From NCBI GenBank assembly GCA_021829145.1, contig JAJZOE010000040.1, positions 8,098 to 32,097 on the forward strand: a DNA stretch of 24,000 nt. The letters are read 5' to 3'. This document shows positions 9,270 through 21,623 of this stretch, piece by piece. Under the pieces are notes generated by a model, which was not told the DNA's origin, ran no database searches, and worked only from the letters and a program-made list of their open reading frames with translations. The number at the start of each line of letters is the position of its first letter. The first letter of the stretch is position 1. This stretch comes from a bacterium. GTDB taxonomy: Bacteria > Patescibacteriota > Saccharimonadia > Saccharimonadales > UBA4665. A program made the position numbers and the translations under genes.

Positions 9270-9983
9270 GTGAAAGTGAGATACAGACGTATGAGCGAGA
9301 AGCAACTATTGGTATATGGGGCCAGGATTAGATTGGCCTGGTTTAGAAAAGCAGAGGAACTTGGGAGTGTTAGTGCTGCCTGTAAGTACTATGGCATACC
9401 TAGGCGAACATACTACTACTGGTACAAACGTTATGTTGACGGCCACAAACTGTTAACTAGCCTATATGACTTACCTAGGATCCCTAAGAGTCATAAACAG
9501 GACTTAAGCGAAGAGTTAGTTAGCCTCATTGTTCAGCTAAGACTAGGGCTCGGCTATGGAGAGAATGCCTTAACTCATGTTCTAGGCAGAGATTATGGCG
9601 TACGCCTATCCCATCATGCGGTTGGTAATGTACTGCGCAGAGCATCTTTAACCGAACCTAAGCCCCGTAAAAGGCGTACACAACGTCAACTTAATGACTA
9701 TCCTTACAAACCAGGTGAAGTAGGACAGATGGATGTTAAGCATTGGAAACGGGTGGCTTACCAGTACGATTTAATTGACTGCGCCACCAGGATTAAGTAC
9801 AAACGTTTGTATCCAGGTTACAGTCCAGCTGAAACCATAGACTTTCTAAAACACGCCATCAGGTTCTTTGACCCAGCTTTTAGCTTTAAGACTATTCAAA
9901 CAGACAATGGCCCAGAGTTTGTTTACGACACCAAGCCACAGATTAAATTAACTACCGTCTCACCAGTTACTAAGTGGCTAGAC
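9270..9983 (+). pseudogene. IS481-like (rve integrase-core) transposase, 5' fragment
   Basis: HTH-like N-terminus, then the DDE core start: GQMDVKHWKRVAYQYDLIDCATR...IQTDNGPEFV. The frame breaks at the nested IS. The 12 codons after 9983 in the ORF track (STYAKSVSSNW) are read from the inserted element. Confidence 0.8.
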
Positions 9984-9998
9984 TCGACTTACGCAAAA
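9984..9998. repeat. Left terminal inverted repeat of the nested IS (TCGACTTACGCAAAA)
   Basis: Exact reverse complement of 11106-11120, checked base by base. Confidence 0.9.
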
Positions 9999-11050
9999 TC
10001 AGTCAGCTCAAACTGGTAGGCAGGATTTCTCCAAAGCTGTTTCTGGTATTCCCGTAAGGGGATATGCTTAACCTCGTACATGGTGGTCTGCATTTGCTTG
10101 GCTAGTTCATTGAATTGATGCCAAACAACAAAAGCAATGCAGATATGGTTCCGCTGTTTTCTACCTTTCCTGGCTTGGCACTTGGCTACGCCAGTTAATT
10201 GTTTAACCTCTCTATGAAACTGTTCGATCTTCCAACGAAAGCCGCCAACCTGTTTGGCAGCCTCTGTGGTCTCGGTACTTACTTGGTTCGTCACCAAGTA
10301 TTCCACCCGGTGTTTAGCCGTGAGCTGGAATAGTTTCAACTTCTTATCTTTAGGCAGAAAATCTACGCAAACAAGCTTGCCATGTTCTTTAAGCTCGGGA
10401 TCTTCCCAGTCCAGATCACCAACATGCTTGTAGATAATCTGCATTTCGCCAGTCGTCTCGTTGGGGTACTCGTAGCTCACTATCCGGCTTTTAGGCATCA
10501 CGCCAAAGAAGTATTTATTGATGCGAATTACGTATTGCATGATCTGCTTGCAGGTGTAACCTGCGTCAATGAGAACTGTGGTAAATGGTGCACGGCTAGG
10601 GTGCAGTTCACCTATGGCTTGCCAGTACCGAATCATCTCTAGGGCATGAGCTGTTTTCTTCTTACCGTCAGTAGCTTTGTCATAAATCCGGTAGTCAAGT
10701 ATCCAGTATTTGTCTAGTTCAGGATTAATGTAGACCAGCGTGACAACACCAATGCCAGTGGTAATGCTATGCTTTTGTCCGGAGTACTGGGCGGAGGCTA
10801 CTTCAATCTGTTCGGACGATGCTTTATCCATGACCGTGTCATCCAGAGCCAAATAGCCGTTCTTACTGGGGATGATGAGCTCCAAGGCTTTTTCCCGTAC
10901 TACCTTGGGCGACAACTTAATGGTAGCGATTGATCTGCCTATGGTGTCATGGGACACTGTCCCGATGACTTCTGAGAAGTAAGTAGCCGTAAAGTTATCT
11001 ACCCCATTAAGTAACATCTGAGCATAGTCAGACGTCACGATTTTTGCCAT
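9989..11050 (-). CDS. DDE transposase, IS4 superfamily (IS701-like)
   Basis: 353-aa ORF. Candidate DDE residues lie in LALDDTVMD, VLIDAGYT and FRWKIEQFHREVKQLTG (R-x3-E-x6-K signature of IS4-type enzymes). An AAGGAGA SD lies 5 nt upstream of the ATG. The 3' end of the ORF runs into the terminal repeat. Confidence 0.85.
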   Translation of the reverse strand: MAKIVTSDYAQMLLNGVDNFTATYFSEVIGTVSHDTIGRSIATIKLSPKVVREKALELIIPSKNGYLALDDTVMDKASSEQIEVASAQYSGQKHSITTGIGVVTLVYINPELDKYWILDYRIYDKATDGKKKTAHALEMIRYWQAIGELHPSRAPFTTVLIDAGYTCKQIMQYVIRINKYFFGVMPKSRIVSYEYPNETTGEMQIIYKHVGDLDWEDPELKEHGKLVCVDFLPKDKKLKLFQLTAKHRVEYLVTNQVSTETTEAAKQVGGFRWKIEQFHREVKQLTGVAKCQARKGRKQRNHICIAFVVWHQFNELAKQMQTTMYEVKHIPLREYQKQLWRNPAYQFELTDFA

Positions 11051-11121: not shown

Positions 11122-11456
11122 TAGAGAGCCATAGTATTGAGCATGGTTGCATACCGGTTCGTTCACCACATCTTAACGGTAGAATTGAACGATCTCATGG
11201 TGTAGATAAAGACCGTTACAAACGTCTAACGACAAACAGCCACGACAAAAGTGAATTGCAAGCCTTCCTCATTGATGACTGCCTAGACTACAACTTCTAC
11301 CGACCGCACAGTATGCTGAACATGATGACACCAATTGAGTACTTACAAAGTCTGCCTGGCTACGAGAACGCTAATATTGATACAAGTTGCTACTTGTTTA
11401 GGAGGGCGACCAGCAGCAAATTAACCAAGATCTATCATTTCTACACCAAGAGATGA
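11122..11456 (+). pseudogene. IS481-like transposase, 3' fragment
   Basis: Same frame as 9270-9983. It translates to ...HSIEHGCIPVRSPHLNGRIERSHGVDKDRY...FYRPHSMLNMMTPIEYLQ, which holds the catalytic E region and the rve C-terminal motif. The frame has no stop before the putative IS end and terminates at TGA 11454-11456, inside the convergent neighbouring gene. Confidence 0.75.
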
Positions 11457-14400
11457 GTAGTCAACCAAGTAGTATCCGCGATCATCAGTATAAACTGCCT
11501 CTGGATGTATAGCTATAATATCCTGAGCCATTACACCGATATAGCATTTCTCTTTTCCAATGTATTTAAAGGTGTACATGGGAACGTTATCATCTGTTGT
11601 ATAGAGGTACCTAACCTCTTGTTTTAACCTAATATCTGAAGGTGCTGGAGGACCTGGAGGGCCAATAGGAGGTCCTGCAGGCCCCGGAGGACCTGGTGGT
11701 GGCATATTTGCAGCGGCAGCTTCTTGATTGGTAGTCAATACTTTTTTATATTGTTGGAATTCTCTATCTGACTCAACGGCTGAAAGAACCTCGCCAAGAG
11801 TTCCTGCTCTTCTGGATACTTCAGCCCTTTCCATTACAGGCATATTGGTAGAAGTGTCTATGGCCGGGTTTCCGTCTTTATCCATTACCTGCCTCATACC
11901 ATACACTGGTACGGAAGTAACTGAAGTCAACGGAAGATTTTGTCCCATGACCGCTCCTACAATTGCGTTGTTTTCTGGACTTAACTGCGACGCTATGTCA
12001 AGAAACGAGGATGTATGTGCAAGTGTACGTTTAAGTTGACGTTCTGCATTTGCTATAGCTACCTGATTACCTGATTGTCTTGCTGTTTGAACATCTGCAA
12101 CTGCTCTTCCGAGCCTACGCTGCATTGCAGGTACCATAATTTGAAGAGAGTTATTTCTAGCACTACCAATTTCGCCTGCACTCTTGGTGTCCATAACCTC
12201 ATCGGTCATAATCTCGTTAACTGCAGCATCGTTCGTATTACCCGTATAGAGTTGAGACAATTGATCCATAGACGTGGCAACCCCAGCCCCGTATAGATCC
12301 ACACGCCTAGCTTGCTGCGCCTGCTGCCTGGCACTAATTAACATCCTGGCTGCTCTAGCCCTGTCTCTTCCAGCAACACGGTTGATTGTACGTAACATTT
12401 CTGCTGGACCTCCTCTATAACCAGTTCCTGTTCCTGCTAAGTTAGCAGCTGCAAAATCCTCAAACGCCTCAACTCCAACTTCTTTTCTGGCTCTAATAAT
12501 TGACGAAACATTTTGATCAAGCTCGGCACCAGTTTGCCCGATTCCCTCTAAGTAAGAGCGTATATCTTCTTCGGTTCTGTTACGGTATAAGGCTGCTCTA
12601 AGCAGATCATCATTACCTTTAATCATACTCACTGCAGCGCTTTTTTCTGCTTCTGATGAATGCACGCTTGTCATTTCAGATCTAACAGAATCTAGGTTGC
12701 CTCTAATTCTGGCAGGATTAAGTCCTGCTTTCCCCGATGCAATTAGGGAAGCGCTTTGGAGCCTTTGATTTAGCCTGTGTCTTAGGCTAGAAGGGTCCGC
12801 ATTCTTAAAGTGTTTACCTGCTAGAGTGTTATTGAAATTCTTTGCGGCTTGTTTTCTGGCCATACCCATCAGGGGTTTATTTACTCTAGATGTCATCTTG
12901 GATACAGCTCCGGATACACTCCCTATCACGCCACCTGACATTCTAAAAGCAAACGGTATTAGGAATAACGGGGCAACAACTGCAATAAGCGCCATACATT
13001 GGGCAAGAATTGTTGGTTTAATGGTCTGATCAAAATCACTCATAACCACACCGCTCACGTATGCCATTGCAAATACAGAAGTAACTATTGGGTATACGGT
13101 CAAAGTCTTGATTAGTAGTCCCCACCATTTCTTAAAATATTGTTCCGTATTAGGCAGAACATAAAGAGCAAAAGCTACAGGTGAAATTAAAAGAAGAAAA
13201 ACTAATAGCCCCTGTCGGACTATAACAGTTATAAATATGCCTAGAACTGCTACAAGTGCCATTATTACAACCAATAATAAGATGCCAATACTGCCTGCCG
13301 TAAGTACGCCAAAGGCTAAAGCACCAAGACCTAGAGATAAAGCACCTACGCCTAAAAGGCCGGTTCCTCCACCTATATTCATTCCTGGTAAGACGCTCTT
13401 ACTCCCACCCATAATCGACCCAGCCGCTGCTCTGAAAGGAGCCTCAATAATTGAGCTTATACCAGCACCAAGTATGTTGAAGATATCTTCAAGCCCGGCG
13501 ACGATGTAAATTGATAAATTAATTAAGATGGCCGCTACAAGGATCCGGGGCAATACTTTTCTAACGGTGTAAGCTTCAATCATGCCACCACCTGCAGCCT
13601 CCCCATATACGATTGCCAACATCGCAATCACCAGGATAATATCGCCATATAACCGGAAGTTTGACCAAACATGATACAATGCAGAACTAAAATTCGCTTC
13701 AGAGCTACAGGAGGACCCAGGCTTGTTAGAACAGCTCAGGCTGCTTGTAAAACTAATTGGCTTAGTTTGAAGCAGGTCTTGAACATATTTTTCAATACTC
13801 TGTTCGGCGCCGGTTACCGCATTTATAACAGGACATATAACCCAAGCTAGAGAGAAACCACTAGACTCACATTGTGACGGTCCACTAGAAGGCGTTTGCG
13901 CAGGGGTAGATGTTGACGATGCATTCGCTGGTACGAAACGTTGATTTTTTACTAAAATAATGGAAATTGGCTGTGACATACTTGCATTTAAATTTTTAAG
14001 CTTTTCTGACGACTCAACTTGATAATAAGGAGGATTGCCCAATGGTGATGGCGAATAGTTGATGACTACATCATATTTATTTGGCGTAACATTGTGTGCC
14101 TGAAACACGCCATCATTTACGGCCGTTAATGATTTATCACCATTTGAACAACTGGATGAATTTTTAGACGCTAATATTAAACAAAGCCCAACATATGTAC
14201 CATTTTTGGGAGCTTTCGTTGTATTACAGCTTGAATTGCAGGTACTATTTTGGGTATATCCAACATCGAAGGTAACCGTAGGAATAACCTTTGTTTTAGT
14301 AGTGGATAGTGTAATACTAGACGTTTTATATACTCCTAGCCACTGACTCACCTTGCCACACAGATTAATGAACGCAATAGCAGAAGAAGATCCTTTAGTG

Positions 14401-14807
14401 ACTTCTAAATTGACATTTGTGTTATTGTTTGCGTTTTGGCAGGCTTGTATGTTTTGGGTGGTGGCAACATTTTTAAAGTATGGGGAGAGAAAACAGTTAT
14501 TTGATGTATCGTAATTATAACTAGAATAAACTCCGCCATTTATTGAAAACTTATATCCCGTAGAGTTGGATTTATTACTTACACCGTTAATAGGAAAACA
14601 CAATTGTATTGAATCGGCTGCCCCAATTGTGTTTATTGGGGTTGAGCCGTCTATTATTGTTAGTTGCTGTGTATTATTTGAGGTAGATGAAGCGTGTGCT
14701 ATTTTAGAAGTCTTTATAACTAAAGACATAAAGACAGCAAAGAAAAGAATAAACAGAAGCCCAATTATTTTTATTTTTCTCATGTTAAATTTCTTATATC
14801 TTGTCAT
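11421..14807 (-). CDS. TrbL/VirB6-like polytopic membrane protein with a Cys-rich N-terminal ectodomain, a long helical C-terminal region, a collagen-like tract and a C-terminal Peptidase_S74 intramolecular-chaperone domain
   Basis: 1128-aa ORF. Signal/anchor is IIGLLFILFFAVFMSLVI. Residues about 35-380 are N/S/T-rich with 12 Cys. Residues about 385-635 hold about 7-8 TM helices, including the VirB6/TrbL-like RQGLLVFLLLISPVAFALYVLPNTEQYFKKWWGLLIK. The C-terminal features are listed separately. The alternative start is ATG 14783. Confidence 0.85.
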   Translation of the reverse strand: MTRYKKFNMRKIKIIGLLFILFFAVFMSLVIKTSKIAHASSTSNNTQQLTIIDGSTPINTIGAADSIQLCFPINGVSNKSNSTGYKFSINGGVYSSYNYDTSNNCFLSPYFKNVATTQNIQACQNANNNTNVNLEVTKGSSSAIAFINLCGKVSQWLGVYKTSSITLSTTKTKVIPTVTFDVGYTQNSTCNSSCNTTKAPKNGTYVGLCLILASKNSSSCSNGDKSLTAVNDGVFQAHNVTPNKYDVVINYSPSPLGNPPYYQVESSEKLKNLNASMSQPISIILVKNQRFVPANASSTSTPAQTPSSGPSQCESSGFSLAWVICPVINAVTGAEQSIEKYVQDLLQTKPISFTSSLSCSNKPGSSCSSEANFSSALYHVWSNFRLYGDIILVIAMLAIVYGEAAGGGMIEAYTVRKVLPRILVAAILINLSIYIVAGLEDIFNILGAGISSIIEAPFRAAAGSIMGGSKSVLPGMNIGGGTGLLGVGALSLGLGALAFGVLTAGSIGILLLVVIMALVAVLGIFITVIVRQGLLVFLLLISPVAFALYVLPNTEQYFKKWWGLLIKTLTVYPIVTSVFAMAYVSGVVMSDFDQTIKPTILAQCMALIAVVAPLFLIPFAFRMSGGVIGSVSGAVSKMTSRVNKPLMGMARKQAAKNFNNTLAGKHFKNADPSSLRHRLNQRLQSASLIASGKAGLNPARIRGNLDSVRSEMTSVHSSEAEKSAAVSMIKGNDDLLRAALYRNRTEEDIRSYLEGIGQTGAELDQNVSSIIRARKEVGVEAFEDFAAANLAGTGTGYRGGPAEMLRTINRVAGRDRARAARMLISARQQAQQARRVDLYGAGVATSMDQLSQLYTGNTNDAAVNEIMTDEVMDTKSAGEIGSARNNSLQIMVPAMQRRLGRAVADVQTARQSGNQVAIANAERQLKRTLAHTSSFLDIASQLSPENNAIVGAVMGQNLPLTSVTSVPVYGMRQVMDKDGNPAIDTSTNMPVMERAEVSRRAGTLGEVLSAVESDREFQQYKKVLTTNQEAAAANMPPPGPPGPAGPPIGPPGPPAPSDIRLKQEVRYLYTTDDNVPMYTFKYIGKEKCYIGVMAQDIIAIHPEAVYTDDRGYYLVDYSSLGVEMIDLG
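11424..11639 (-). other. Peptidase_S74-like intramolecular chaperone / autoproteolysis domain (C-terminal 72 aa of the VirB6-like protein)
   Basis: SDIRLKQEVRYLYTTDDNVPMYTFKYIGKEKCYIGVMAQDIIAIHPEAVYTDDRGYYLVDYSSLGVEMIDLG. It matches the family hallmarks S-D-x-R-x-K (Ser/Lys dyad with a 5-residue offset), hIGhhAQ-h...P-hV and h-V-D-Y-s-x-L. Confidence 0.75.
11640..11705 (-). repeat. Collagen-like Gly-Pro-rich tract (PPPGPPGPAGPPIGPPGPPAP) immediately before the S74 cleavage serine
   Basis: The plus strand reads ggtgctggaggacctggagggccaataggaggtcctgcaggccccggaggacctggtggtgg. The protein shows G-P-P/G-P-A triplets with one interruption. Confidence 0.85.
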
Positions 14808-14909: not shown

Positions 14910-16841
14910 TTACACGCCTGGACTTAGGTGGTTTGTTAAATCAATCGTTCCGCCAATAGGAGTGTTACTATTTTGTAGATTTACACTAGCATTCCTATTC
15001 TCTATCTGATTAACCTCTTGAGGATTTGTGGTAATTAGGGATGTTTCTGTTGGACTGGCAATTACTTGAATATGAACATGGTTTTGCCCGGCGAAGAATA
15101 GACCTTGGCCAACTGGAAACTGACTTAATCTTTTTTTCTCTTCGGTGGTTAACTTAAATACATCACTTAGCATGTCTACTGCAGATGGAGATTGCTTTAA
15201 TAGGAACTGCATGGAAGCGTTGGCAACAATTGCTCTTCCCATGCGGCTACCCATAAAATCTTCGACATCTTGGGTGACCGTTGTTATCCCCAAGTTATAC
15301 TTCCGGGCTCTCTTAGCCACGCTAAACAAGAAGTTGGCCGAATCCTCGTACTTCATCAGCTGCCAGGCTTCATCTACTATTAGAATCCTTCTCTTCTTAT
15401 CTGTTTTTGTACGATTCCAGATATAGTTTAAAACTATATACATAGCTACCGGTCTAAGCTCGTCTTCAAGATCTCTTACGTTAAACACGACCATCTGGTT
15501 ATTTATATCGATGTTAGACTGTTGGCTAAATATCCCGGCAAAGGTTCCGCTGGTATATTTTCTCAAACGTTGGGCTAGTTGTGGCCCAAAACCACCCATA
15601 TGCAGCAAAGTGTCATAAAGATCATTTATTGTCGGCGGCTTACTGCTATGAGTAAGCGGATCATTGGTAATCCCCGCTCTGGCATAAGTGTCTATAAGCG
15701 CCGCGTCAAGATCTGCTTCTTCTGAAGGTGTTAGTGCTGGCATTAAGGTGGCGTTGCCACCAACCAGCTGAGCCTGAGCCCCACCCATCATTAGTCTTAA
15801 AAGCCCATGCAGGGTAATAAGGTTAGACCTTAAGGCGTTGTCGGCTTCTTCTTCATCAACCACTCTAGGCAAATCAAACGGGTTAACGCGCGTTGAACTG
15901 CTAAGACTTAACCTTACATAAGCTCCGCCTACCGCATCACAGAGCCTTTGGTATTCGTTTTCCGGGTCAATAATAATTATCTCGGTACCGAACATCATCG
16001 ATCTCAGGGCTTCAAGTTTTACGGTAAATGACTTACCGGCTCCAGACTTAGCGAATACAACCGAGTTACCGTTTTCCAGACTGAAGCGGTCAAAGATGAC
16101 CAGGCCGGAGTTATGCATATTTATCCCGTAGAGAATGCCATTATCCTGGCTAAGATCGGCAGAGGTAAAAGGAAAACTGGTACTCAGAGCGCCGGTACTC
16201 ATGTTACGGCGAATTTGCAATTGATCGGAAAGTTGAGGAACGGTAGAGTTTAAACCCTGTTCTTGTTGGGCTGTAGCCGGTTTACTATAGACCAGTTGTT
16301 CGCCAAGCATAGACTCTACTTTGTGTGTTACGAAATCTAACTCGTCTTTTGATTCAGCATAAATAGTGAAGTAAAAACCAAAACGGAAGAATCTTTCCTC
16401 TCCTACCTGCAGTTTATCTCTAATTTCTTCGGCATCTTGGATGGCGGCTTGTTTGCCCGGGTCTCGGACTTTGCCCTTCTCCATGTCTATCTGAATACCA
16501 GCCTCTAACTGGGTGACCTTTTTTCGCAGGTTTTCTAATACAACCTGACTTTCAACTGGATAGATATAGAGGCTAATATCCATAACCTCGTCCAAGTTAA
16601 CCATGCCGCTCAGCCAGCCGGTATATAGTTGCCTCGGATAGCCGTAGACATAAAAAGTGCGGGCAAACCTGGTTCCTATCTGGAAGAAAGAACTGTTAAA
16701 CTCGATTGAACTTGGGGCAATAAAATCTCTAAGGGCAGCAACGCCTTTTTGAAAGGCTTCTTGTACTTCTCTTTTTTCCTGCTCTCTTTGGTTTTGGGCA
16801 AGGGTAATAGGATCCACCGATTGTTTCTTACCAAAGGCCAT
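14910..16841 (-). CDS. virB4: VirB4/TrbE/PrgJ-family T4SS ATPase (C-terminal two-thirds of a typical VirB4)
   Basis: Walker A AKSGAGKS is encoded at 16029-16052 (verified codon by codon). Walker B is RRILIVDEAWQLM. The N-terminal IAPSSIEFNSSFFQIGTRFARTFYVYGYPRQLYTGWLSGM block is typical of Gram-positive VirB4. The start is taken as ATG 16841. The ORF track's TTG at 16850 would overlap the upstream stop. Confidence 0.93.
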   Translation of the reverse strand: MAFGKKQSVDPITLAQNQREQEKREVQEAFQKGVAALRDFIAPSSIEFNSSFFQIGTRFARTFYVYGYPRQLYTGWLSGMVNLDEVMDISLYIYPVESQVVLENLRKKVTQLEAGIQIDMEKGKVRDPGKQAAIQDAEEIRDKLQVGEERFFRFGFYFTIYAESKDELDFVTHKVESMLGEQLVYSKPATAQQEQGLNSTVPQLSDQLQIRRNMSTGALSTSFPFTSADLSQDNGILYGINMHNSGLVIFDRFSLENGNSVVFAKSGAGKSFTVKLEALRSMMFGTEIIIIDPENEYQRLCDAVGGAYVRLSLSSSTRVNPFDLPRVVDEEEADNALRSNLITLHGLLRLMMGGAQAQLVGGNATLMPALTPSEEADLDAALIDTYARAGITNDPLTHSSKPPTINDLYDTLLHMGGFGPQLAQRLRKYTSGTFAGIFSQQSNIDINNQMVVFNVRDLEDELRPVAMYIVLNYIWNRTKTDKKRRILIVDEAWQLMKYEDSANFLFSVAKRARKYNLGITTVTQDVEDFMGSRMGRAIVANASMQFLLKQSPSAVDMLSDVFKLTTEEKKRLSQFPVGQGLFFAGQNHVHIQVIASPTETSLITTNPQEVNQIENRNASVNLQNSNTPIGGTIDLTNHLSPGV

Positions 16842-16842
16842 A

Positions 16843-17694
16843 CTAACCAAGCTCCCTTTGCAAATGCGGCTGTGCCGCTACGCCTTGTCCTTTGGTTATT
16901 ACGTCGGCTGTCAGGTCATTTATATCTTGAAGTTGCTGGCGGGTGGCAGTGTCCGGGTTATAGGTATCATAGTAAAGCTCAATCAGTTCCTGGGTGTCTA
17001 GAGGAAGGCCTTGAATATTGGCCTGCATAAGGCCTCCTAACACGGCCTGGACCCGGTTCCTTAACTCAGTTTTAGCCGCCTCCAACTTAGCTTCATTAAT
17101 TACAATATGAGGCTCTTTCTTATTAAAAAGGTCGACTACTCCTGTAAGAAAGTTTTTGCTCTGGGCCATAGTCTTTACTTCGTCTACGACCGGGAAGTAT
17201 GGGATAACTACATAAAACTTTTTATCCATGATATTGGTTTGCTGACTTAACAGCTCCATGTAGTTGATATAGTCATCCATCAGCATGGCGAGCAGCATGT
17301 TATCGTGCTCCGAGCGGATCTTATCTAGTTTTTCTAGATACGGCTGCATGTCTATCCGCTGAGTGCGAATACAGATTTGAATCGGAAAATCTAAAGAATT
17401 AAGAAATCCTTGATAGGCGTATTCGACGCTCTCTTGTTCCTGCGGGCTCATTAAATCAAAGTTAATACTCTTAACCATAATTACGCTGCGGAAACTACCG
17501 TCGTTCATAATGACGATACCATCTCTTATTTCGGCAATTTGTAGCGTATTTTGAGTACTGTTAGGATTTATTATTTTCGTTGGCTTAGTTGAAGTGTCAT
17601 GAACTATAGGTCCTTGAGGCGGCTGAGTTATAATCGGACTTGGGATCTGGCCGGGTATTTGTGTTGGTTGTTGGTTATTGAGCGGTGGATTCAT
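16843..17694 (-). CDS. VirB4 N-terminal-domain-like protein (separate ORF) with a Pro/Gln-rich N-terminus
   Basis: 283-aa ORF with no TM helix. IAEIRDGIVIMNDGSFRSVIMVKSINFDLMSPQEQESVEYAYQGFLNSLDFPIQI resembles, from memory, the extreme N-terminal block of Firmicute conjugative VirB4 proteins. Its stop TAG (16845-16843) is separated by 1 nt from the VirB4 ATG. Confidence 0.7.
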   Translation of the reverse strand: MNPPLNNQQPTQIPGQIPSPIITQPPQGPIVHDTSTKPTKIINPNSTQNTLQIAEIRDGIVIMNDGSFRSVIMVKSINFDLMSPQEQESVEYAYQGFLNSLDFPIQICIRTQRIDMQPYLEKLDKIRSEHDNMLLAMLMDDYINYMELLSQQTNIMDKKFYVVIPYFPVVDEVKTMAQSKNFLTGVVDLFNKKEPHIVINEAKLEAAKTELRNRVQAVLGGLMQANIQGLPLDTQELIELYYDTYNPDTATRQQLQDINDLTADVITKGQGVAAQPHLQRELG

Positions 17695-17704
17695 TGGTTT
17701 GCAA

Positions 17705-18784
17705 TTAATGTAAATTAATAACTACTTCGTCGTCCGGCATTGATTTCTGCGCCTCGTGGTCAAGTGTGGCAACGCTCAAGTAGCTGTTATTGGCAAGATT
17801 CAGTATAACAGGGTCGATTGGATTTGGCTTCGGGTTTTGGGCAGTCTGTGGTGCCTGAACTTGAGGAGTGTAAGCTGTTTGTTCCTCTATTTGCCTGTCG
17901 GCTGGTCGAGTCTGCTCCGGTGCCGGATAAGCAGGTATTATTAAGTCTGCCTGAACCACGCTATCTTGAGAAGTTGCCTGAGCTGTAGACTGAGGCGAAT
18001 TACTTTGTGACGAGTGGATGGCCATGTGAGTAATCGGTACTTGCGGCACTTCAAAAGTATTCCTGGCCCTAAGTTCGGCACTTAGGATGCCCTCGTCGGT
18101 AATATCCAATATAGGGTTGCTATCCGGATGGCTTACTCTGCCATTAAGTGAATCAATTATTCTTTGACGGTGAGCTTGGGCAGACAGGTTTATACGGTTA
18201 TCCATCGACTGAGCTAACGGGTTATGCTGTTCATCTAAAATGTCATCCTCCGGAGTAACGTCATAATCGGGTACGGGTTTTGGTATCGAACCGATATCTA
18301 TTAACCGGTCGTTGCTGGCCGGGCGGATTACTCTGCTATCGTCAGGAACCGAAGGCATGTTTTTAATAGCCCAACCACGACTGTCAATCATAAGTGTTAA
18401 TGCTTGCAAACGGTTGTTGACCTCTGCTTGTGACAGCCCGTTGGTTAAAGGTCTTTCAGTTTTCTTAGGTACGGTAATAGTAACTAGTTCCTTTACGCCG
18501 CTCTGGTTCCATAACCTCTTTCTCGGCTTGAATAAAAACCTTAGCCGGGCCAGGGCCCAAACTTCAGTTGGTTGATCCCTACGGAAAGGAAAGGCAAAAA
18601 ACCCGCTTAGCAGGCCCGGTGGCAACAAGATAATCAACATAAATAGAGCATGCTTTGATAAAGCAAGAAAACACAGGTACAGGAAGAATATAGTAGACAG
18701 GCTATATATAAACTGTCTGAGTGTCAGAGGACCGAGAATATGGTCTTCCGCTTCAATATCCTGAATCACTTTATACGTTGCCAT
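17705..18784 (-). CDS. PrgI/VirB3-like T4SS membrane protein with a long Pro/Gln-rich C-terminal extension
   Basis: 359-aa ORF. N-terminus MATYKVIQDIEAEDHILGPLTLRQFIY is followed by two TM helices (SLSTIFFLYLCFLAL; LFMLIILLPPGLLSGFFAF), which is the PrgI-family pattern. It is the first gene of the minus-strand operon. Confidence 0.8.
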   Translation of the reverse strand: MATYKVIQDIEAEDHILGPLTLRQFIYSLSTIFFLYLCFLALSKHALFMLIILLPPGLLSGFFAFPFRRDQPTEVWALARLRFLFKPRKRLWNQSGVKELVTITVPKKTERPLTNGLSQAEVNNRLQALTLMIDSRGWAIKNMPSVPDDSRVIRPASNDRLIDIGSIPKPVPDYDVTPEDDILDEQHNPLAQSMDNRINLSAQAHRQRIIDSLNGRVSHPDSNPILDITDEGILSAELRARNTFEVPQVPITHMAIHSSQSNSPQSTAQATSQDSVVQADLIIPAYPAPEQTRPADRQIEEQTAYTPQVQAPQTAQNPKPNPIDPVILNLANNSYLSVATLDHEAQKSMPDDEVVINLH

Positions 18785-18822: not shown

Positions 18823-18901
18823 TGTCTGTCATATGTAATAAAATCTATAGTTTGCCTGGGTATAGCTATTGAAGAGATATCTACCCGTATGCCCGTATAC
18901 C

Positions 18902-18930
18902 TTGAAGGAGTTAGTGTTTCATATTATAGT
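18902..18930 (+). promoter_or_regulatory. Candidate promoter of the pilin array (-35 TTGAAG, 17 nt, -10 TATAGT)
   Basis: TTGAAG at 18902-18907 and TATAGT at 18925-18930, followed by TAAGG SD (18936-18940) and ATG 18949. This supports the internal start for pilin 1. Confidence 0.4.
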
Positions 18931-18948
18931 AGTTCTAAGGTTCAGCAG

Positions 18949-19431
18949 ATGATAAAAAGCAAAAAGCATACCAGGAGAACGCTAACGGTAATTTTTACGG
19001 TTCTAGCTTTACTATTTCCATTAACTGCAACCGTCAGCGCTGTTTCTGTTAACCCCGCTTCAGCTCCCTTGTCGCAGTTTGCTTTATCGCAGTGTGGCAG
19101 TAAAAGCGAAGCGGTCCCAACCAGTATTAACTTCGGTTGTACTGGGGCTCAGTGTATCAGCAACCCCAATAGCGCATACTGCCAAACCCCTCACAGTGGA
19201 ATAGTCGACCTAACTTTTGCAATTATTCGTTTTTTGACTGACGGCGTAGGCCTGGTTTTGATAGCTTCCCTGGTTATAGCAGGTATTCAATATACAACCT
19301 CAAGAGGCGAACCCCAAGCTATGAGTAGTGCTTCAAAGAGAATCCAGAGCACTCTTACAGCACTATTTGTTTATTTGTTTATTTATGCAATTCTAAATTA
19401 TGTAGTTCCCAGTAAACTATTCGGACAATAA
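18949..19431 (+). CDS. VirB2/TrbC-like T4SS pilin paralog 1
   Basis: Signal peptide MIKSKKHTRRTLTVIFTVLALLFPLTATVSA, a 4-Cys variable region, then a two-TM core IAGIQYTTSRGEPQAMSSASKRIQSTLTALFV. The track ORF begins at 18889, but ATG 18949 has an SD and yields a canonical signal peptide. Confidence 0.8.
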   Translation: MIKSKKHTRRTLTVIFTVLALLFPLTATVSAVSVNPASAPLSQFALSQCGSKSEAVPTSINFGCTGAQCISNPNSAYCQTPHSGIVDLTFAIIRFLTDGVGLVLIASLVIAGIQYTTSRGEPQAMSSASKRIQSTLTALFVYLFIYAILNYVVPSKLFGQ

Positions 19432-19433
19432 AG

Positions 19434-19823
19434 ATGATAACCAGACTTTTTCAACAATTTGCCTCATCTTGCACTCCCAGCGGAGGCAGCTTTTTTGGAA
19501 TACCCAAATGGTATGCCTATCTACCAGGCCGGTCAGATCCAGTTACCGGAGTATGCACGCCTAACTTTACTAGTATTGGTGACTTTTGGCTGATTGTAGC
19601 TGCAGTAATCGAAATGCTGCTCAGGCTTGGGGCAATTGTTGCAGTTTTCATGGTTATTTACGGTGGTGTTACTTTCGCAACTAGTCAGGGCAACCCGGAA
19701 GATACCAAGAAGGCCAGAAGTACCATAATCTATGCTCTAGTGGGCTTGCTGGTATCTATCACGGCCTCGTTTATTATTACCTTTGTTGCTAAGAGTGTGA
19801 TGACAAGGAGCGTAACGGCTTAA
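19434..19823 (+). CDS. VirB2/TrbC-like T4SS pilin paralog 2 (no obvious signal peptide)
   Basis: 129 aa. Cys pair (SSCTPS...GVCTPN), then core IYGGVTFATSQGNPEDTKKARSTIIYALVGLLV. The start is 2 nt after the stop of paralog 1. Confidence 0.8.
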   Translation: MITRLFQQFASSCTPSGGSFFGIPKWYAYLPGRSDPVTGVCTPNFTSIGDFWLIVAAVIEMLLRLGAIVAVFMVIYGGVTFATSQGNPEDTKKARSTIIYALVGLLVSITASFIITFVAKSVMTRSVTA

Positions 19824-19827
19824 GCTT

Positions 19828-20166
19828 ATGTTAAACCTATTGCACGTTATCGCCAGCACCTGTACGGGAAGCCAATACAGCCTTCATGTTGATGGTAGGG
19901 GTACCTGTTACAACACTGGAATACCGACCGTTCAATCCGGCAGTCATGAACTTCAATTTATTTTGCAATTATTCTTTGCCATACTGGCGGCTATCTCGGT
20001 ATTGTTTGTAGTCATCGGAGGTATGCGATATACCATTTCCGGGGGCGACCCGGAAGATATGTCTAAGGCCAAGAACACGATTATCTACGCCCTGGTAGGT
20101 TTAGTTGTTGCCTTATTTGCTGAAGCAATCGTTAGCTTTGCCTTAGGGTATATACAAGGTCTATAG
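19828..20166 (+). CDS. VirB2/TrbC-like T4SS pilin paralog 3 (no obvious signal peptide)
   Basis: 112 aa. Cys pair (STCTGS...GTCYNT), then core IGGMRYTISGGDPEDMSKAKNTIIYALVGLVV. Confidence 0.8.
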   Translation: MLNLLHVIASTCTGSQYSLHVDGRGTCYNTGIPTVQSGSHELQFILQLFFAILAAISVLFVVIGGMRYTISGGDPEDMSKAKNTIIYALVGLVVALFAEAIVSFALGYIQGL

Positions 20167-20168
20167 AA

Positions 20169-20573
20169 GTGAGGAAGCTAATATACTCAATTATTACCGG
20201 CATTATTATTTCCCTGTCGGCCTTTCTGCCGGTATCTGCAGCCAGTAGCAGCAGTGGAGCTATATCCAGTAGTAATTTCATTCCTGTCTGTAGTGGCATA
20301 GCTAAACCTACCATACCCTGCCAGGACTCAAACGCCCAGTCAGGGAATACCATTATTAAGATCATTAAAGATGTTATAGATATTATTTCCTTTATCGTCG
20401 GCGTTGCTGCCGTATTTATAATTATCGTCAGTGGTATGAAAATGGTGGTAGCTAGCGGAGATTCAAAAGCTCTATCAGAAGCAAAGACCGGCATAGTTGG
20501 AGCTATTATAGGAATATTAGTAGTTGTTCTGGCTCAAGGATTCGTAGTATTTGTATTAGATAGGATAAAATAA
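20169..20573 (+). CDS. VirB2/TrbC-like T4SS pilin paralog 4
   Basis: 134 aa with a GTG start. Signal peptide ...IIISLSAFLPVSAAS, Cys pair (PVCSG...IPCQD), core VSGMKMVVASGDSKALSEAKTGIVGAIIGILV. Confidence 0.8.
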   Translation: MRKLIYSIITGIIISLSAFLPVSAASSSSGAISSSNFIPVCSGIAKPTIPCQDSNAQSGNTIIKIIKDVIDIISFIVGVAAVFIIIVSGMKMVVASGDSKALSEAKTGIVGAIIGILVVVLAQGFVVFVLDRIK

Positions 20574-20574
20574 A

Positions 20575-21048
20575 ATGAAGTTATTAATGAACAGAACCAT
20601 TCGTATCATTGCAATAATCGTTTTTGGGATCAGTCCTTTCATTATTAGCCAATCGGTATCTGCCCAGTCGGCTGCCTATTCCAGTGCTTGTCAGGGGATA
20701 AGTGAGTTAGGTGCTGGTCAAGGCTGTAGCAGTGGTCCTTCCACCTTTGATAATCTAATCAAGACCGCAGTTGATATCTTAAGTTATATAGTGGGAATTG
20801 CTGCCGTCATTATGATTATTGTGAGCGGATTAAGGTTCGTGATGGCTGGTGGTGAAAGCCAGGCAGTTTCTGGAGCTAAAAACTCGCTTATCTGGGCTAT
20901 TGTTGGTATTGCTGTGGTTGCGCTTGCCCAAGTTATCGTCCACATGACCCTAAACACGTCAGTTAATATTGCAAAAAACAGTCCTACTTCATCATCTCAA
21001 CAGGCTAAGCAACCGACTAAAACTACTAACCAACCGACGCCACACTAG
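20575..21048 (+). CDS. VirB2/TrbC-like T4SS pilin paralog 5 (polar S/T/Q/P tail)
   Basis: 157 aa. Signal peptide ...IFGISPFIISQSVSAQS, Cys pair (SACQG...QGCSS), core VSGLRFVMAGGESQAVSGAKNSLIWAIVGIAV. It shares LNTSVNI with paralog 6. Confidence 0.82.
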   Translation: MKLLMNRTIRIIAIIVFGISPFIISQSVSAQSAAYSSACQGISELGAGQGCSSGPSTFDNLIKTAVDILSYIVGIAAVIMIIVSGLRFVMAGGESQAVSGAKNSLIWAIVGIAVVALAQVIVHMTLNTSVNIAKNSPTSSSQQAKQPTKTTNQPTPH

Positions 21049-21058
21049 TGTTACTTTA

Positions 21059-21086
21059 TTGATTTTCTTCTTATCAGTGCTATTAT
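21059..21086 (+). promoter_or_regulatory. Candidate internal promoter for pilin paralog 6 (-35 TTGATT, 16 nt, -10 TATTAT)
   Basis: Lies in the only sizeable gap (74 nt) of the pilin array and is followed by AGGAAAGG SD and ATG 21123. Motif evidence only. Confidence 0.35.
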
Positions 21087-21122
21087 ATTTCTGATATAAG
21101 CCAAGGAAAGGTAAAAAATAGA

Positions 21123-21623
21123 ATGATTCAAAAATTTAAAAAACAATTAATGATTGCTGTAGCGGCACTGTCATTGCTGGTACCGGTAGCCGTACCAGCG
21201 GTAGCTTTTGCCAATTCGCCACCCGGCTCAACAGGCTGTACGAGCAATAATATCGCTAGTCAGGTGGGTAATGGTATAGCATCAGCCACAAACCAAACAA
21301 CCAATTCCTGTGGTACTGGCTCTGACATTACAAACGGTGTTAAGAAGATTGCAATAAATGTAGTTGATATCCTGTCGGTTGTTGTAGGTATTGTTGCTGT
21401 TATTATGATCATCTACGCAGGACTAAGATATGTAACCTCTGGGGGCGAGAGTGGCGGTGTTACTAGCGCAAAAAACAGCTTGCTTTATGCGATCGTAGGA
21501 TTAGTATTAGTAGCTCTAGCTCAGTTTATAGTCAGATGGGTGCTCAACACTTCAGTTAATATTGGTACAACAAGCCCACAAGTAGTCAATTTTATTAACC
21601 TTATTCACTTAATAAGGTGGTAA
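21123..21623 (+). CDS. VirB2/TrbC-like T4SS pilin paralog 6
   Basis: 166 aa. Signal peptide ...LLVPVAVPAVAFANS, Cys pair (TGCTSN...NSCGTG), core YAGLRYVTSGGESGGVTSAKNSLLYAIVGLVL. It is the paralog most similar to paralog 5. Confidence 0.82.
   Translation: MIQKFKKQLMIAVAALSLLVPVAVPAVAFANSPPGSTGCTSNNIASQVGNGIASATNQTTNSCGTGSDITNGVKKIAINVVDILSVVVGIVAVIMIIYAGLRYVTSGGESGGVTSAKNSLLYAIVGLVLVALAQFIVRWVLNTSVNIGTTSPQVVNFINLIHLIRW

What the first reader, a model, noticed from the sequence alone, without database searches (positions are those of the whole stretch)
14910..18784. VirB3-like, VirB4 N-terminal piece and VirB4 ATPase encoded as three abutting ORFs, collinear with a single VirB3-VirB4 fusion
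Seen: the PrgI/VirB3-like ORF ends in a long Pro/Gln-rich tail. Ten nt later, the 283-aa ORF begins with another Pro/Gln-rich stretch (NPPLNNQQPTQIPGQIPSPIITQPPQGP), then a block (IAEIRDGIVIMNDGSFRSVIMVKSINFDLMSPQEQESVEYAYQGFLNSL...) that I recognise as resembling the extreme N-terminus of Firmicute VirB4 proteins. Its TAG stop is followed after a single nt by the ATG of the 643-aa ATPase. That ATPase starts at the second conserved VirB4 N-domain block (IAPSSIEF...YPRQLYTGWL). Together, 283 + 643 aa roughly equal one VirB4 plus a linker. Established: VirB4 is normally one polypeptide of about 800 aa, and VirB3-VirB4 fusions exist in some systems. Inference: the gene may be genuinely split, with the parts expressed by translational coupling. 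Alternatively it may carry a recent nonsense mutation or a sequencing or assembly error. A conserved split would be an unusual architecture for the most conserved T4SS component.
Basis: partly seen in the sequence, partly recalled or inferred. Interest (0 to 1): 0.6.

Follow-up and report, generated by a model that had tools for sequence, protein, structure and literature searches.

The report
Two-gene VirB4 (TrsD plus ATPase)
The motor ATPase of this tiny bacterium's type IV secretion machine really is encoded as two adjacent genes, but this split is the normal, conserved and already published (TrsD + VirB4) arrangement in its whole phylum, not an error or a new oddity.

Summary
Three abutting minus-strand genes encode a PrgI/VirB3-like protein (359 aa), a 283-aa protein and a 643-aa VirB4 ATPase. 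The spacers are 10 nt and 1 nt (TAGTATG).

The 283-aa protein matches the first ~100-170 positions of three VirB4 profiles. The ATPase starts at position ~174. Both map collinearly onto an unsplit 831-aa Bacillus VirB4 and onto a natural 898-aa fusion. The predicted fold of the 283-aa protein significantly matches only TrwK/VirB4 of R388.

The split is not an error or a pseudogene:
- 39 of 41 relatives and 143 of 151 genomes sampled across the phylum (Patescibacteria) carry the piece as a separate 206-408-aa frame.
- In 12 orthologous loci a stop (TAA, TAG or TGA) precedes the ATPase ATG by -1 to +9 nt, in varying frame relations.
- Two paralogous PrgI-TrsD-VirB4 sets lie in the same genome.
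- Firmicute plasmids have the same pair.

It is, however, published. The small protein is the TrsD-type protein, reported as remotely homologous to the VirB4 N-terminus. It is the most abundant T4SS component in Patescibacteria, usually lies next to virB4, and is essential in Southlakia epibionticum (PMC12102498).

Verdict: a real, conserved, translationally coupled two-chain VirB4. Already known, low interest.

The parts
17705..18784 (-). PrgI/VirB3-like membrane protein, 359 aa. PrgI domain at residues 5-91, followed by a long low-complexity Pro/Gln-rich C-terminal extension.
   Evidence: ORF. Pfam PF12666 PrgI E 2.8e-11, 44.2 bits against a cut-off of 27. Orthologues lie upstream of the TrsD-like gene in 10 related loci.
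17695..17704 (-). 10-nt spacer between the PrgI-like stop (TAA 17705-17707) and the ATG (17692-17694) of the TrsD-like gene.
   Evidence: Sequence read directly.
16843..17694 (-). TrsD-like protein, 283 aa: the detached first sub-domain of the VirB4 N-terminal domain. Variable Pro/Gln-rich head (residues 1-42); conserved core (residues ~43-283) ending in the conserved motif HLQREL.
   Evidence: NCBIfam matches TrsD/TraD NF041427 (E 8.5e-8) and the N-termini of three VirB4 profiles. BLASTP to residues 26-170 of an unsplit 831-aa VirB4, E 1e-12. 40% identity to residues 13-228 of a fused 898-aa protein. The AF2 model's top 14 PDB fold hits are all TrwK/VirB4. More than 7,880 homologues of 260-365 aa. 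Invariant columns listed.
16839..16845 (-). Junction TAGTATG: TrsD-like stop TAG (16843-16845), 1 nt, then the VirB4 start ATG (16839-16841). A purine-rich AGGGAG lies 10 nt upstream of the ATG, inside the conserved ...QRE... codons.
   Evidence: Sequence. In 12 orthologous loci the stop-to-ATG spacing is -1 to +9 nt, with TAA, TAG or TGA as the stop and all three frame relations.
14910..16841 (-). N-terminally short VirB4 ATPase, 643 aa: second half of the VirB4 N-domain (residues ~1-227) plus the C-terminal ATPase domain.
   Evidence: NCBIfam NF045971 CD1110-family VirB4, 371.7 bits against a cut-off of 325, profile positions 174-734 of 752. Pfam P-loop_TraG, AAA_10 and DUF87. PDB 4AG5 VirB4 C-terminal domain, E 6.5e-50, aligned to residues 228-604. 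Matches residues 234-822 of an unsplit 831-aa VirB4.

Best explanation
The 283-aa gene is a TrsD-type gene. It encodes, as a separate polypeptide, the first ~170-200 residues' worth of the VirB4 N-terminal domain. The 643-aa gene encodes the rest of VirB4: the second half of the N-domain plus the ATPase domain.

The three genes prgI/virB3-like, trsD-like and virB4 form the head of an origin-proximal chromosomal T4SS operon of a Saccharimonadia-type patescibacterium. They are most likely translated in a coupled way (spacers of 10 nt and 1 nt). The two chains then most likely associate non-covalently into a VirB4-like protomer. In that protomer the TrsD piece occupies the membrane-proximal place where, in R388, the VirB4 N-domain meets VirB3.

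Shown here: the gene layout, the homology and complementarity, the conservation, and the existence of fused forms. Inferred: translational coupling, physical assembly of the two chains, and contact with PrgI.

The split is ancient. It is shared by essentially the whole phylum, by paralogous element-borne systems in the same genome, and by Firmicute plasmids of the pGO1/TrsD type.
For: 1. Complementary mapping. p283 covers the N-terminal positions of three VirB4 profiles, and p643 begins at positions 174, 278 and 219 of the same profiles. The paralogous pair on contig C5 of the same genome covers CD1110 profile positions 12-171 and 200-732. Against an unsplit 831-aa Bacillus mycoides plasmid VirB4, p283 residues 46-197 match its 26-170 (E 1e-12) and p643 residues 28-613 match its 234-822 (E 4e-74).
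2. Natural fusion. P0198 (898 aa) consists of a TrsD-like part (residues 13-228, 40% identity), a Pro-rich linker, and a VirB4 part (residues 310-898, 49% identity).
3. Fold. The AF2 model (core pLDDT ~70-90) has PDB hits with E below 2e-3 that are exclusively TrwK/VirB4 chains of R388 (14 chains, probability 1.0).
4. Conservation of the split. 39 of 41 relatives across 17 families have a separate open frame of 280-367 aa. 143 of 151 genomes sampled across the phylum have open frames of 206-408 aa, none fused. In 12 orthologous junctions the stop codon, spacing (-1 to +9 nt) and frame vary while the flanking protein ends stay conserved.
5. The same PrgI-TrsD-VirB4 set occurs with 4-nt overlaps on contigs C5 and C18 of this genome. 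It also occurs on Pontibacillus and Planococcus plasmids; the Planococcus gene is annotated TrsD.
6. An Embleya plasmid protein fuses PrgI (residues 14-101) to a TrsD-like segment (residues 145-210, hhalign probability 93.9%), which links TrsD to VirB3/PrgI.
7. Literature. TrsD is remotely homologous to the VirB4 N-terminus. It is the most abundant T4SS component in Patescibacteria; 1,664 of 2,272 homologues lie next to virB4; it is essential in Southlakia epibionticum ML1 (PMC12102498). That T4SS locus is essential (PMC10633639).
Against: No direct evidence here that the two chains bind each other or PrgI. A complex could not be predicted with the tools.

The AF2 model is only moderate overall (mean pLDDT 62.6, pTM 0.50). 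Foldseek TM-scores are modest (0.35-0.42 normalised to the query), and the output does not say which TrwK residues are aligned.

The sequence matches of p283 to VirB4 profiles are weak individually (E 1e-4 to 1e-7). The match to NCBIfam's TrsD model (32 bits) is far below its curated cut-off of 200 bits.

The C-terminal ~85 residues of p283 and the first ~25 of p643 have no clear counterpart in the unsplit Bacillus protein, whose corresponding gap is only ~63 residues.
Confidence: 0.88

Rival explanations
1. The stop at 16843-16845 is a recent nonsense or frameshift mutation, or a sequencing or assembly error, in a normally continuous ~900-aa virB4 gene.
For: A single window shows only a stop, one nucleotide, and then an ATG in another frame. 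That is what a 1-nt indel could produce. One fused 898-aa relative exists.
Against: All 12 orthologous loci examined have a stop followed by an ATG, with different stop codons, spacings and frames. 143 of 151 genomes across the phylum have a separate 206-408-aa frame. More than 7,880 database homologues are all 260-365 aa. Both protein ends at the junction are conserved...HLQRELx, then stop, then MxxxKK..DP.
Confidence: 0.01
2. A single fused chain is made from the two ORFs by programmed recoding (a +1 frameshift or stop-codon read-through).
For: The ORFs abut within a few nucleotides. In 3 of 12 loci they are in the same frame, separated only by a stop and 1-3 codons.
Against: The frame relation is 0, +1 or +2 in different close relatives. 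All three stop codons are used. No slippery or otherwise conserved nucleotide motif is shared. Each downstream ORF has its own ATG. Paralogues use ATGA-type 4-nt overlaps.
Confidence: 0.02
3. TrsD is an independent accessory protein that arose by duplication of the VirB4 N-terminus. It has its own role, such as regulator, assembly chaperone or substrate adaptor, and is not the missing piece of its partner ATPase.
For: The literature assigns no function to TrsD (PMC12102498). About a quarter of patescibacterial TrsD homologues are not next to virB4, notably in Gracilibacteria. p283 carries extra sequence (a Pro/Gln-rich head and a ~85-residue tail) with no counterpart in unsplit VirB4.
Against: The partner ATPases lack precisely the segment that TrsD matches. 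Their profile coverage starts at ~172-202 in four independent systems: the window, contig C5, Pontibacillus and Embleya. So this is complementation, not duplication. A fused TrsD-VirB4 exists in the collinear order. p283 and p643 show no similarity to each other, as judged from their non-overlapping profile ranges.
Confidence: 0.08

Closest known systems
TrsD + VirB4 of the patescibacterial chromosomal T4SS (Quinonero-Coronel et al. 2025, PMC12102498; Southlakia epibionticum ML1 locus SEML1_0006-0019, Wang et al. 2023, PMC10633639)
   Same: Same phylum-level system. It is an origin-proximal locus: dnaN and recF lie at the start of the window. It has PrgI/VirB3, TrsD, VirB4, a large membrane protein, a cell-wall hydrolase and an array of six VirB2-like pilin genes. 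TrsD lies directly upstream of virB4. Orthologues are 56-78% identical across the order.
   Different: Nothing substantive; this is another genome's copy. The published work calls TrsD a remote homologue of the VirB4 N-terminus with no assigned function. It does not spell out that the partner VirB4 lacks that segment. The complementary mapping shown here is a small refinement.
TrsD/TraD + TrsE/TraE of pGO1/pSK41/pIP501-type Firmicute conjugative plasmids (MPF_FATA subclass pGO1; NCBIfam NF041427)
   Same: A stand-alone ~200-aa protein homologous to the VirB4 N-terminus, encoded immediately upstream of a ~620-670-aa VirB4. p283 matches NF041427 at E 8.5e-8. The paralogue on contig C5 matches it over profile positions 8-200 of 201. 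Planococcus and Pontibacillus plasmids show the same gene pair.
   Different: p283 scores 32 bits against a curated cut-off of 200, so it is not a member of the narrowly defined staphylococcal/enterococcal subfamily. It is longer (283 aa against ~200 aa), with a Pro/Gln-rich head and an extra C-terminal region. The host system is chromosomal, has pilins, and has no relaxase or coupling protein in the locus (literature). It is thought not to be conjugative.
Canonical single-chain VirB4 (TrwK of R388, PDB 7O41/8RTB; CD1110-family VirB4 of Firmicutes; the 831-aa B. mycoides plasmid protein)
   Same: p283 and p643 together are collinear with it. The p283 model has TrwK as its only significant fold match. 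The p643 C-domain matches PDB 4AG5 at E 6.5e-50.
   Different: Two polypeptides instead of one. The break lies inside the N-terminal domain, at about profile positions 171-200 of 752, not at the boundary between the N-domain and the ATPase domain.
VirB3-VirB4 fusion proteins of some conjugative systems (cited in PMC12102498)
   Same: Same gene order: VirB3, then VirB4 N-terminus, then ATPase. An Embleya plasmid protein fuses PrgI to a TrsD-like segment.
   Different: In the window all three modules are separate genes. The 2025 survey found no VirB3-VirB4 fusions in Patescibacteria.

Membership tests
TrsD-type protein in the broad sense (stand-alone VirB4 N-terminal homologue, as used for Patescibacteria in PMC12102498) | Detectable homology to the N-terminal portion of VirB4 | tested here: met
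   Three NCBIfam VirB4 profiles match at their N-termini. BLASTP E 1e-12 to residues 26-170 of an unsplit VirB4. Fold hits are TrwK only.
TrsD-type protein in the broad sense (stand-alone VirB4 N-terminal homologue, as used for Patescibacteria in PMC12102498) | Separate small ORF encoded next to (upstream of) a virB4 gene | tested here: met
   283-aa ORF ending 1 nt before the virB4 ATG. The same holds in 12 orthologous loci.
TrsD-type protein in the broad sense (stand-alone VirB4 N-terminal homologue, as used for Patescibacteria in PMC12102498) | Hit by the CONJScan/MPF_FATA TrsD HMM used in the published survey | not testable with these tools
   That profile is not in any library offered here. 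The closest proxy is NCBIfam NF041427 (E 8.5e-8).
NCBIfam NF041427 TrsD/TraD subfamily (staphylococcal/enterococcal plasmids) | Score at or above the curated cut-off (200 bits) | tested here: not met
   32.3 bits over profile positions 20-145 of 201. p283 is a remote relative, not a member of this narrow subfamily.
VirB4 ATPase (CD1110-type, NF045971) for the 643-aa protein | Score at or above the curated cut-off, and a P-loop ATPase C-domain | tested here: met
   371.7 bits against a cut-off of 325. Pfam P-loop_TraG, AAA_10 and DUF87. PDB 4AG5 E 6.5e-50. Walker A (AKSGAGKS) and Walker B-like (ILIVDEAW) motifs are visible in the translation.
VirB4 ATPase (CD1110-type, NF045971) for the 643-aa protein | Full-length single-chain architecture including the first ~170 profile positions | tested here: not met
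   Profile coverage starts at position 174 of 752. The missing part is supplied by the upstream ORF.
PrgI/VirB3 family (PF12666) for the 359-aa protein | Score at or above the Pfam gathering threshold over the whole domain | tested here: met
   44.2 bits against a threshold of 27, profile positions 1-90 of 91.
Patescibacterial origin-proximal T4SS locus (Southlakia type) | VirB3, TrsD, VirB4 and a multi-gene VirB2-like pilin array near dnaA/dnaN | tested here: met
   dnaN and recF at 52-2195. Six T4SS_pilin ORFs at 18889-21623.
Patescibacterial origin-proximal T4SS locus (Southlakia type) | Essentiality for epibiotic growth | not testable with these tools
   Reported only for S. epibionticum ML1 (PMC10633639; PMC12102498).

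The most novel reading that the evidence does not exclude
The break inside the VirB4 N-domain may be functional rather than neutral. TrsD, tethered to PrgI/VirB3 in the membrane, would act as a fixed docking adaptor that the soluble short-VirB4 hexamer can bind and leave. Alternatively it could bind at a stoichiometry other than 1:1. Either would give these pilus-bearing, non-conjugative T4SSs a regulated assembly step that single-chain VirB4 systems lack. The modules PrgI, TrsD and ATPase occur separately (the window), as PrgI+TrsD (Embleya), as TrsD+ATPase (P0198 and canonical VirB4) and as all three fused (published VirB3-VirB4 fusions). This permutation fits autonomous modules but does not show regulation.
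Probability: 0.15. Interest if true: 0.5.

Novelty: already known. Interest (0 to 1): 0.18.

Why it matters
It settles an annotation question. In patescibacterial and pGO1-type T4SS loci, a 'hypothetical protein' of 200-350 aa in front of a short virB4 is the detached VirB4 N-terminal sub-domain (TrsD). It should not be flagged as a broken gene, and the short VirB4 should not be called truncated.

The T4SS concerned is essential for the epibiotic life of cultured Saccharibacteria, so knowing that its motor is a two-chain protein is useful for anyone modelling or purifying it. The fact itself is already in the literature, so this window adds only one more example. It also adds a slightly sharper statement of complementarity: break point at about CD1110 profile positions 171-200, collinear fused and unsplit relatives, and a PrgI-TrsD fusion in an actinomycete.

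Tried and rejected
- Sequence search of p283, and of its 45-sequence profile, against PDB sequences found no VirB4. The only hits were a chance-level stomatin match at E 0.1. Only the fold comparison found TrwK.
- The local Pfam-A gave no family for p283. The precomputed accession PF26593 attached to all homologues is not in the local library, so its name could not be read.
Cross-genome conservation replaces it.
- I considered folding the natural fusion P0198, or a concatenation of the two ORFs, to model the interface.
- I considered a VirB4 tree to decide between one ancient fission and several. I did not build it, because the handful of sequences held (7) would not support a conclusion.
- Rejected readings: pseudogene or error, programmed recoding, alternative genetic code (all three stops are used at the junction in relatives), and an independent duplicated accessory protein (the partner lacks the segment).


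Full report
**Observation**

The three ORFs exist as described, all on the minus strand.
- 17705-18784: 359 aa. Pfam PrgI, 44.2 bits against a cut-off of 27, residues 5-91.
- 16843-17694: 283 aa (p283).
- 14910-16841: 643 aa from the ATG (p643); an upstream TTG would give 646 aa.

The first junction is TAA + 10 nt + ATG. The second reads GGT TAG T ATG GCC, so the ATPase lies in a different frame from the 283-aa ORF.

The window begins with dnaN and recF. It also holds a cell-wall hydrolase, a 1128-aa membrane protein and six VirB2-like pilin genes on the opposite strand. This is the origin-proximal chromosomal T4SS locus typical of Saccharibacteria.

**Is the 283-aa protein a VirB4 N-terminal piece?**

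Yes.
- NCBIfam places p283 residues 48-145 on positions 2-99 of the CD1110-family VirB4 profile. It places residues 43-164 on positions 100-233 of the Mbov_0397 VirB4 profile, and residues 57-175 on positions 19-128 of TIGR00929. It also matches the TrsD/TraD family model (E 8.5e-8).
- The 643-aa protein begins at positions 174, 278 and 219 of the same three VirB4 profiles. It exceeds the curated cut-off of the CD1110 family, 371.7 against 325 bits.
- Against an unsplit 831-aa VirB4 of a Bacillus mycoides plasmid, p283 residues 46-197 align to its residues 26-170 (E 1e-12). p643 residues 28-613 align to its residues 234-822 (E 4e-74).
- A representative-library search found one natural fusion, P0198 (898 aa). 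Residues 13-228 are 40% identical to p283 residues 46-266. A Pro-rich linker follows. Residues 310-898 are 49% identical to p643 residues 16-619.
- An AlphaFold2 model of p283 from a 45-sequence alignment has a mean pLDDT of 62.6. The head, one internal loop (residues 171-196) and most of the last ~40 residues are disordered; the core scores 70-90. Its 14 best PDB fold matches are all TrwK/VirB4 chains of plasmid R388 (E 2.8e-5 to 1.4e-3, probability 1.0). Nothing else scores below E 0.1.
- The C-domain of p643 matches the VirB4 C-terminal-domain crystal structure 4AG5 over residues 228-604 (E 6.5e-50). Residues 1-227 of p643 are therefore the remainder of the N-domain, and the break lies inside the N-domain.

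**Is the split real?**

Yes, and it is ancient.
- In 41 related genomes (one order, 17 families, 0.4-1.2 Mb each), 39 have a match. The orthologues all sit in separate open frames of 280-367 aa that end at query position ~282.
- I examined the junction in 12 orthologous loci. Each has a stop codon (TAA, TAG or TGA) followed by the ATPase's ATG at -1 to +9 nt. All three frame relations occur. The protein ends on both sides are conserved (...HLQRELx, then MxxxKK..DP...).
- Across 151 genomes sampled evenly from the phylum, 143 have a homologue. All are in open frames of 206-408 aa and none is fused.
- The large protein collection holds more than 7,880 homologues, all 260-365 aa among those listed.
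- The same genome has two further paralogous sets on other contigs. On contig C5 these are PrgI-like (163 aa), TrsD-like (207 aa) and VirB4 (569 aa), with 4-nt overlaps. The C5 pair covers CD1110 profile positions 12-171 and 200-732.
- Firmicute plasmids carry the same pair. Pontibacillus has 116-aa PrgI-like, 274-aa and 621-aa CD1110-family VirB4 genes that overlap one another. In Planococcus the upstream gene is annotated TrsD.
- The break point falls at about profile positions 171-202 in all four systems tested. This fits one old fission, or a favoured domain boundary.

These results exclude a nonsense mutation, an assembly error, an alternative genetic code and conserved programmed recoding.

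**How it most likely works**

Shown: three tightly spaced co-oriented genes, complementary homology, purifying conservation of both pieces, and collinear fused relatives.

Inferred:
- The genes are translationally coupled, which would give near-equimolar products.
- TrsD and the short VirB4 associate non-covalently to rebuild a VirB4-like protomer.
- The TrsD piece occupies the membrane-proximal position that contacts VirB3 in the R388 inner-membrane complex. This draws on my knowledge of the structures listed.

A link between TrsD and PrgI/VirB3 is supported by an Embleya linear-plasmid protein. It has a PrgI domain (residues 14-101) followed by a TrsD-like segment (residues 145-210, hhalign probability 93.9%), and lies upstream of a separate 643-aa VirB4 that starts at profile position 202.

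The three modules thus occur in every adjacent combination: all separate, PrgI+TrsD, TrsD+ATPase, and (from the literature) VirB3+VirB4.

**Comparison with what is known**

[quoted passage not shown] It is otherwise known only from the pGO1 subclass of MPF_FATA. [quoted passage not shown]
- The same survey reports that the homologue in Southlakia epibionticum ML1 is essential, and it found no VirB3-VirB4 fusions in the phylum.
- Wang et al. 2023 (PMC10633639) showed the T4SS locus to be essential. It carries pilins and lacks a recognisable relaxase or coupling protein.
- A 2025 review repeats this picture (PMC12857230).

The finding is therefore the published TrsD-VirB4 pair in one more genome. 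By NCBIfam's curated threshold p283 is not a member of the narrow staphylococcal/enterococcal TrsD/TraD subfamily (32 against 200 bits). It is a TrsD-type protein in the broader sense used by the survey.

The only increments here are:
- an explicit demonstration that the partner VirB4 lacks exactly the segment TrsD provides;
- the position of the break inside the N-domain;
- the two Rosetta-stone fusions (P0198 and Embleya).

**Verdict**

Its 'unusual architecture' framing is not, because the arrangement is the norm and already described. Novelty: already known. Interest: low (about 0.18).

Earlier notes of this scan on the same window describe the locus, the coupling overlaps and the six-pilin array in the same way. 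They did not change my reading.

Noticed in passing
G000 contig C5 (L014:328-3126) and contig C18 (L015:3-2213): Two further paralogous PrgI-like, TrsD-like and short-VirB4 gene sets in the same ~0.9-Mb genome. Each uses 4-nt start/stop overlaps and is only 30-38% identical to the window's set. They are probably element-borne T4SSs.
   Followed up: partly
P0198 (898-aa protein): A natural TrsD-linker-VirB4 fusion. It is closer to the window's ATPase (49% identity) than the same-genome paralogues are (36-38%), so it looks like a secondary re-fusion within the split clade. Its source organism and contig could not be looked up with the permitted tools.
   Followed up: partly
L019:3569-4618 (Embleya sp. 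linear plasmid NZ_CP108778.1): A 349-aa protein annotated 'PrgI family protein' combines a PrgI domain (residues 14-101) with a TrsD-like segment (residues 145-210). Next come an XF1762-family gene and a separate 643-aa VirB4, then a coupling protein.
   Followed up: partly
One search, hits H8 and others (Haloglomus and Haloplanus plasmids): Haloarchaeal plasmids also encode stand-alone homologues covering p283 residues ~34-246. The split form therefore reaches Archaea.
   Followed up: no
window 11421-14807 (-): The 1128-aa polytopic membrane protein downstream of virB4 ends in a Peptidase_S74 (endosialidase chaperone) domain (Pfam E 1.2e-5, residues 1057-1106), preceded by a Pro/Gly-rich tract. 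An earlier follow-up of this scan already treats it.
   Followed up: no
window 18889-21623 (+): Six tandem T4SS_pilin (VirB2-like) paralogues divergently transcribed from the prgI-trsD-virB4 operon. They match the six-pilin array described for Southlakia.
   Followed up: no
window 9270-11050: Transposase genes (an HTH + rve fragment on the + strand, a DDE_Tnp_1 on the - strand) lie between the VirB6-like gene and the downstream apparatus genes (241 aa, 940 aa, 636-aa hydrolase with Phage_lysozyme2, 487 aa). They interrupt the operon.
   Followed up: no
window 16850-16870 (-), codons for ...LQRELG: The conserved C-terminal motif HLQREL of TrsD is encoded by purine-rich codons (AGGGAG in the window) about 10 nt upstream of the virB4 ATG. 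They could double as its Shine-Dalgarno. In some relatives the codons are AGAGAA, so this is not universal.
   Followed up: partly
Pontibacillus VirB4 (L017:5731-7596): The N-domain remainder of a short VirB4 (residues 51-197) matches the C-terminal part (positions 327-475 of 477) of the actinomycete 'SCO6880 family protein' model. This hints that yet another stand-alone or fused VirB4 N-domain protein family exists in Streptomyces-type systems.
   Followed up: no
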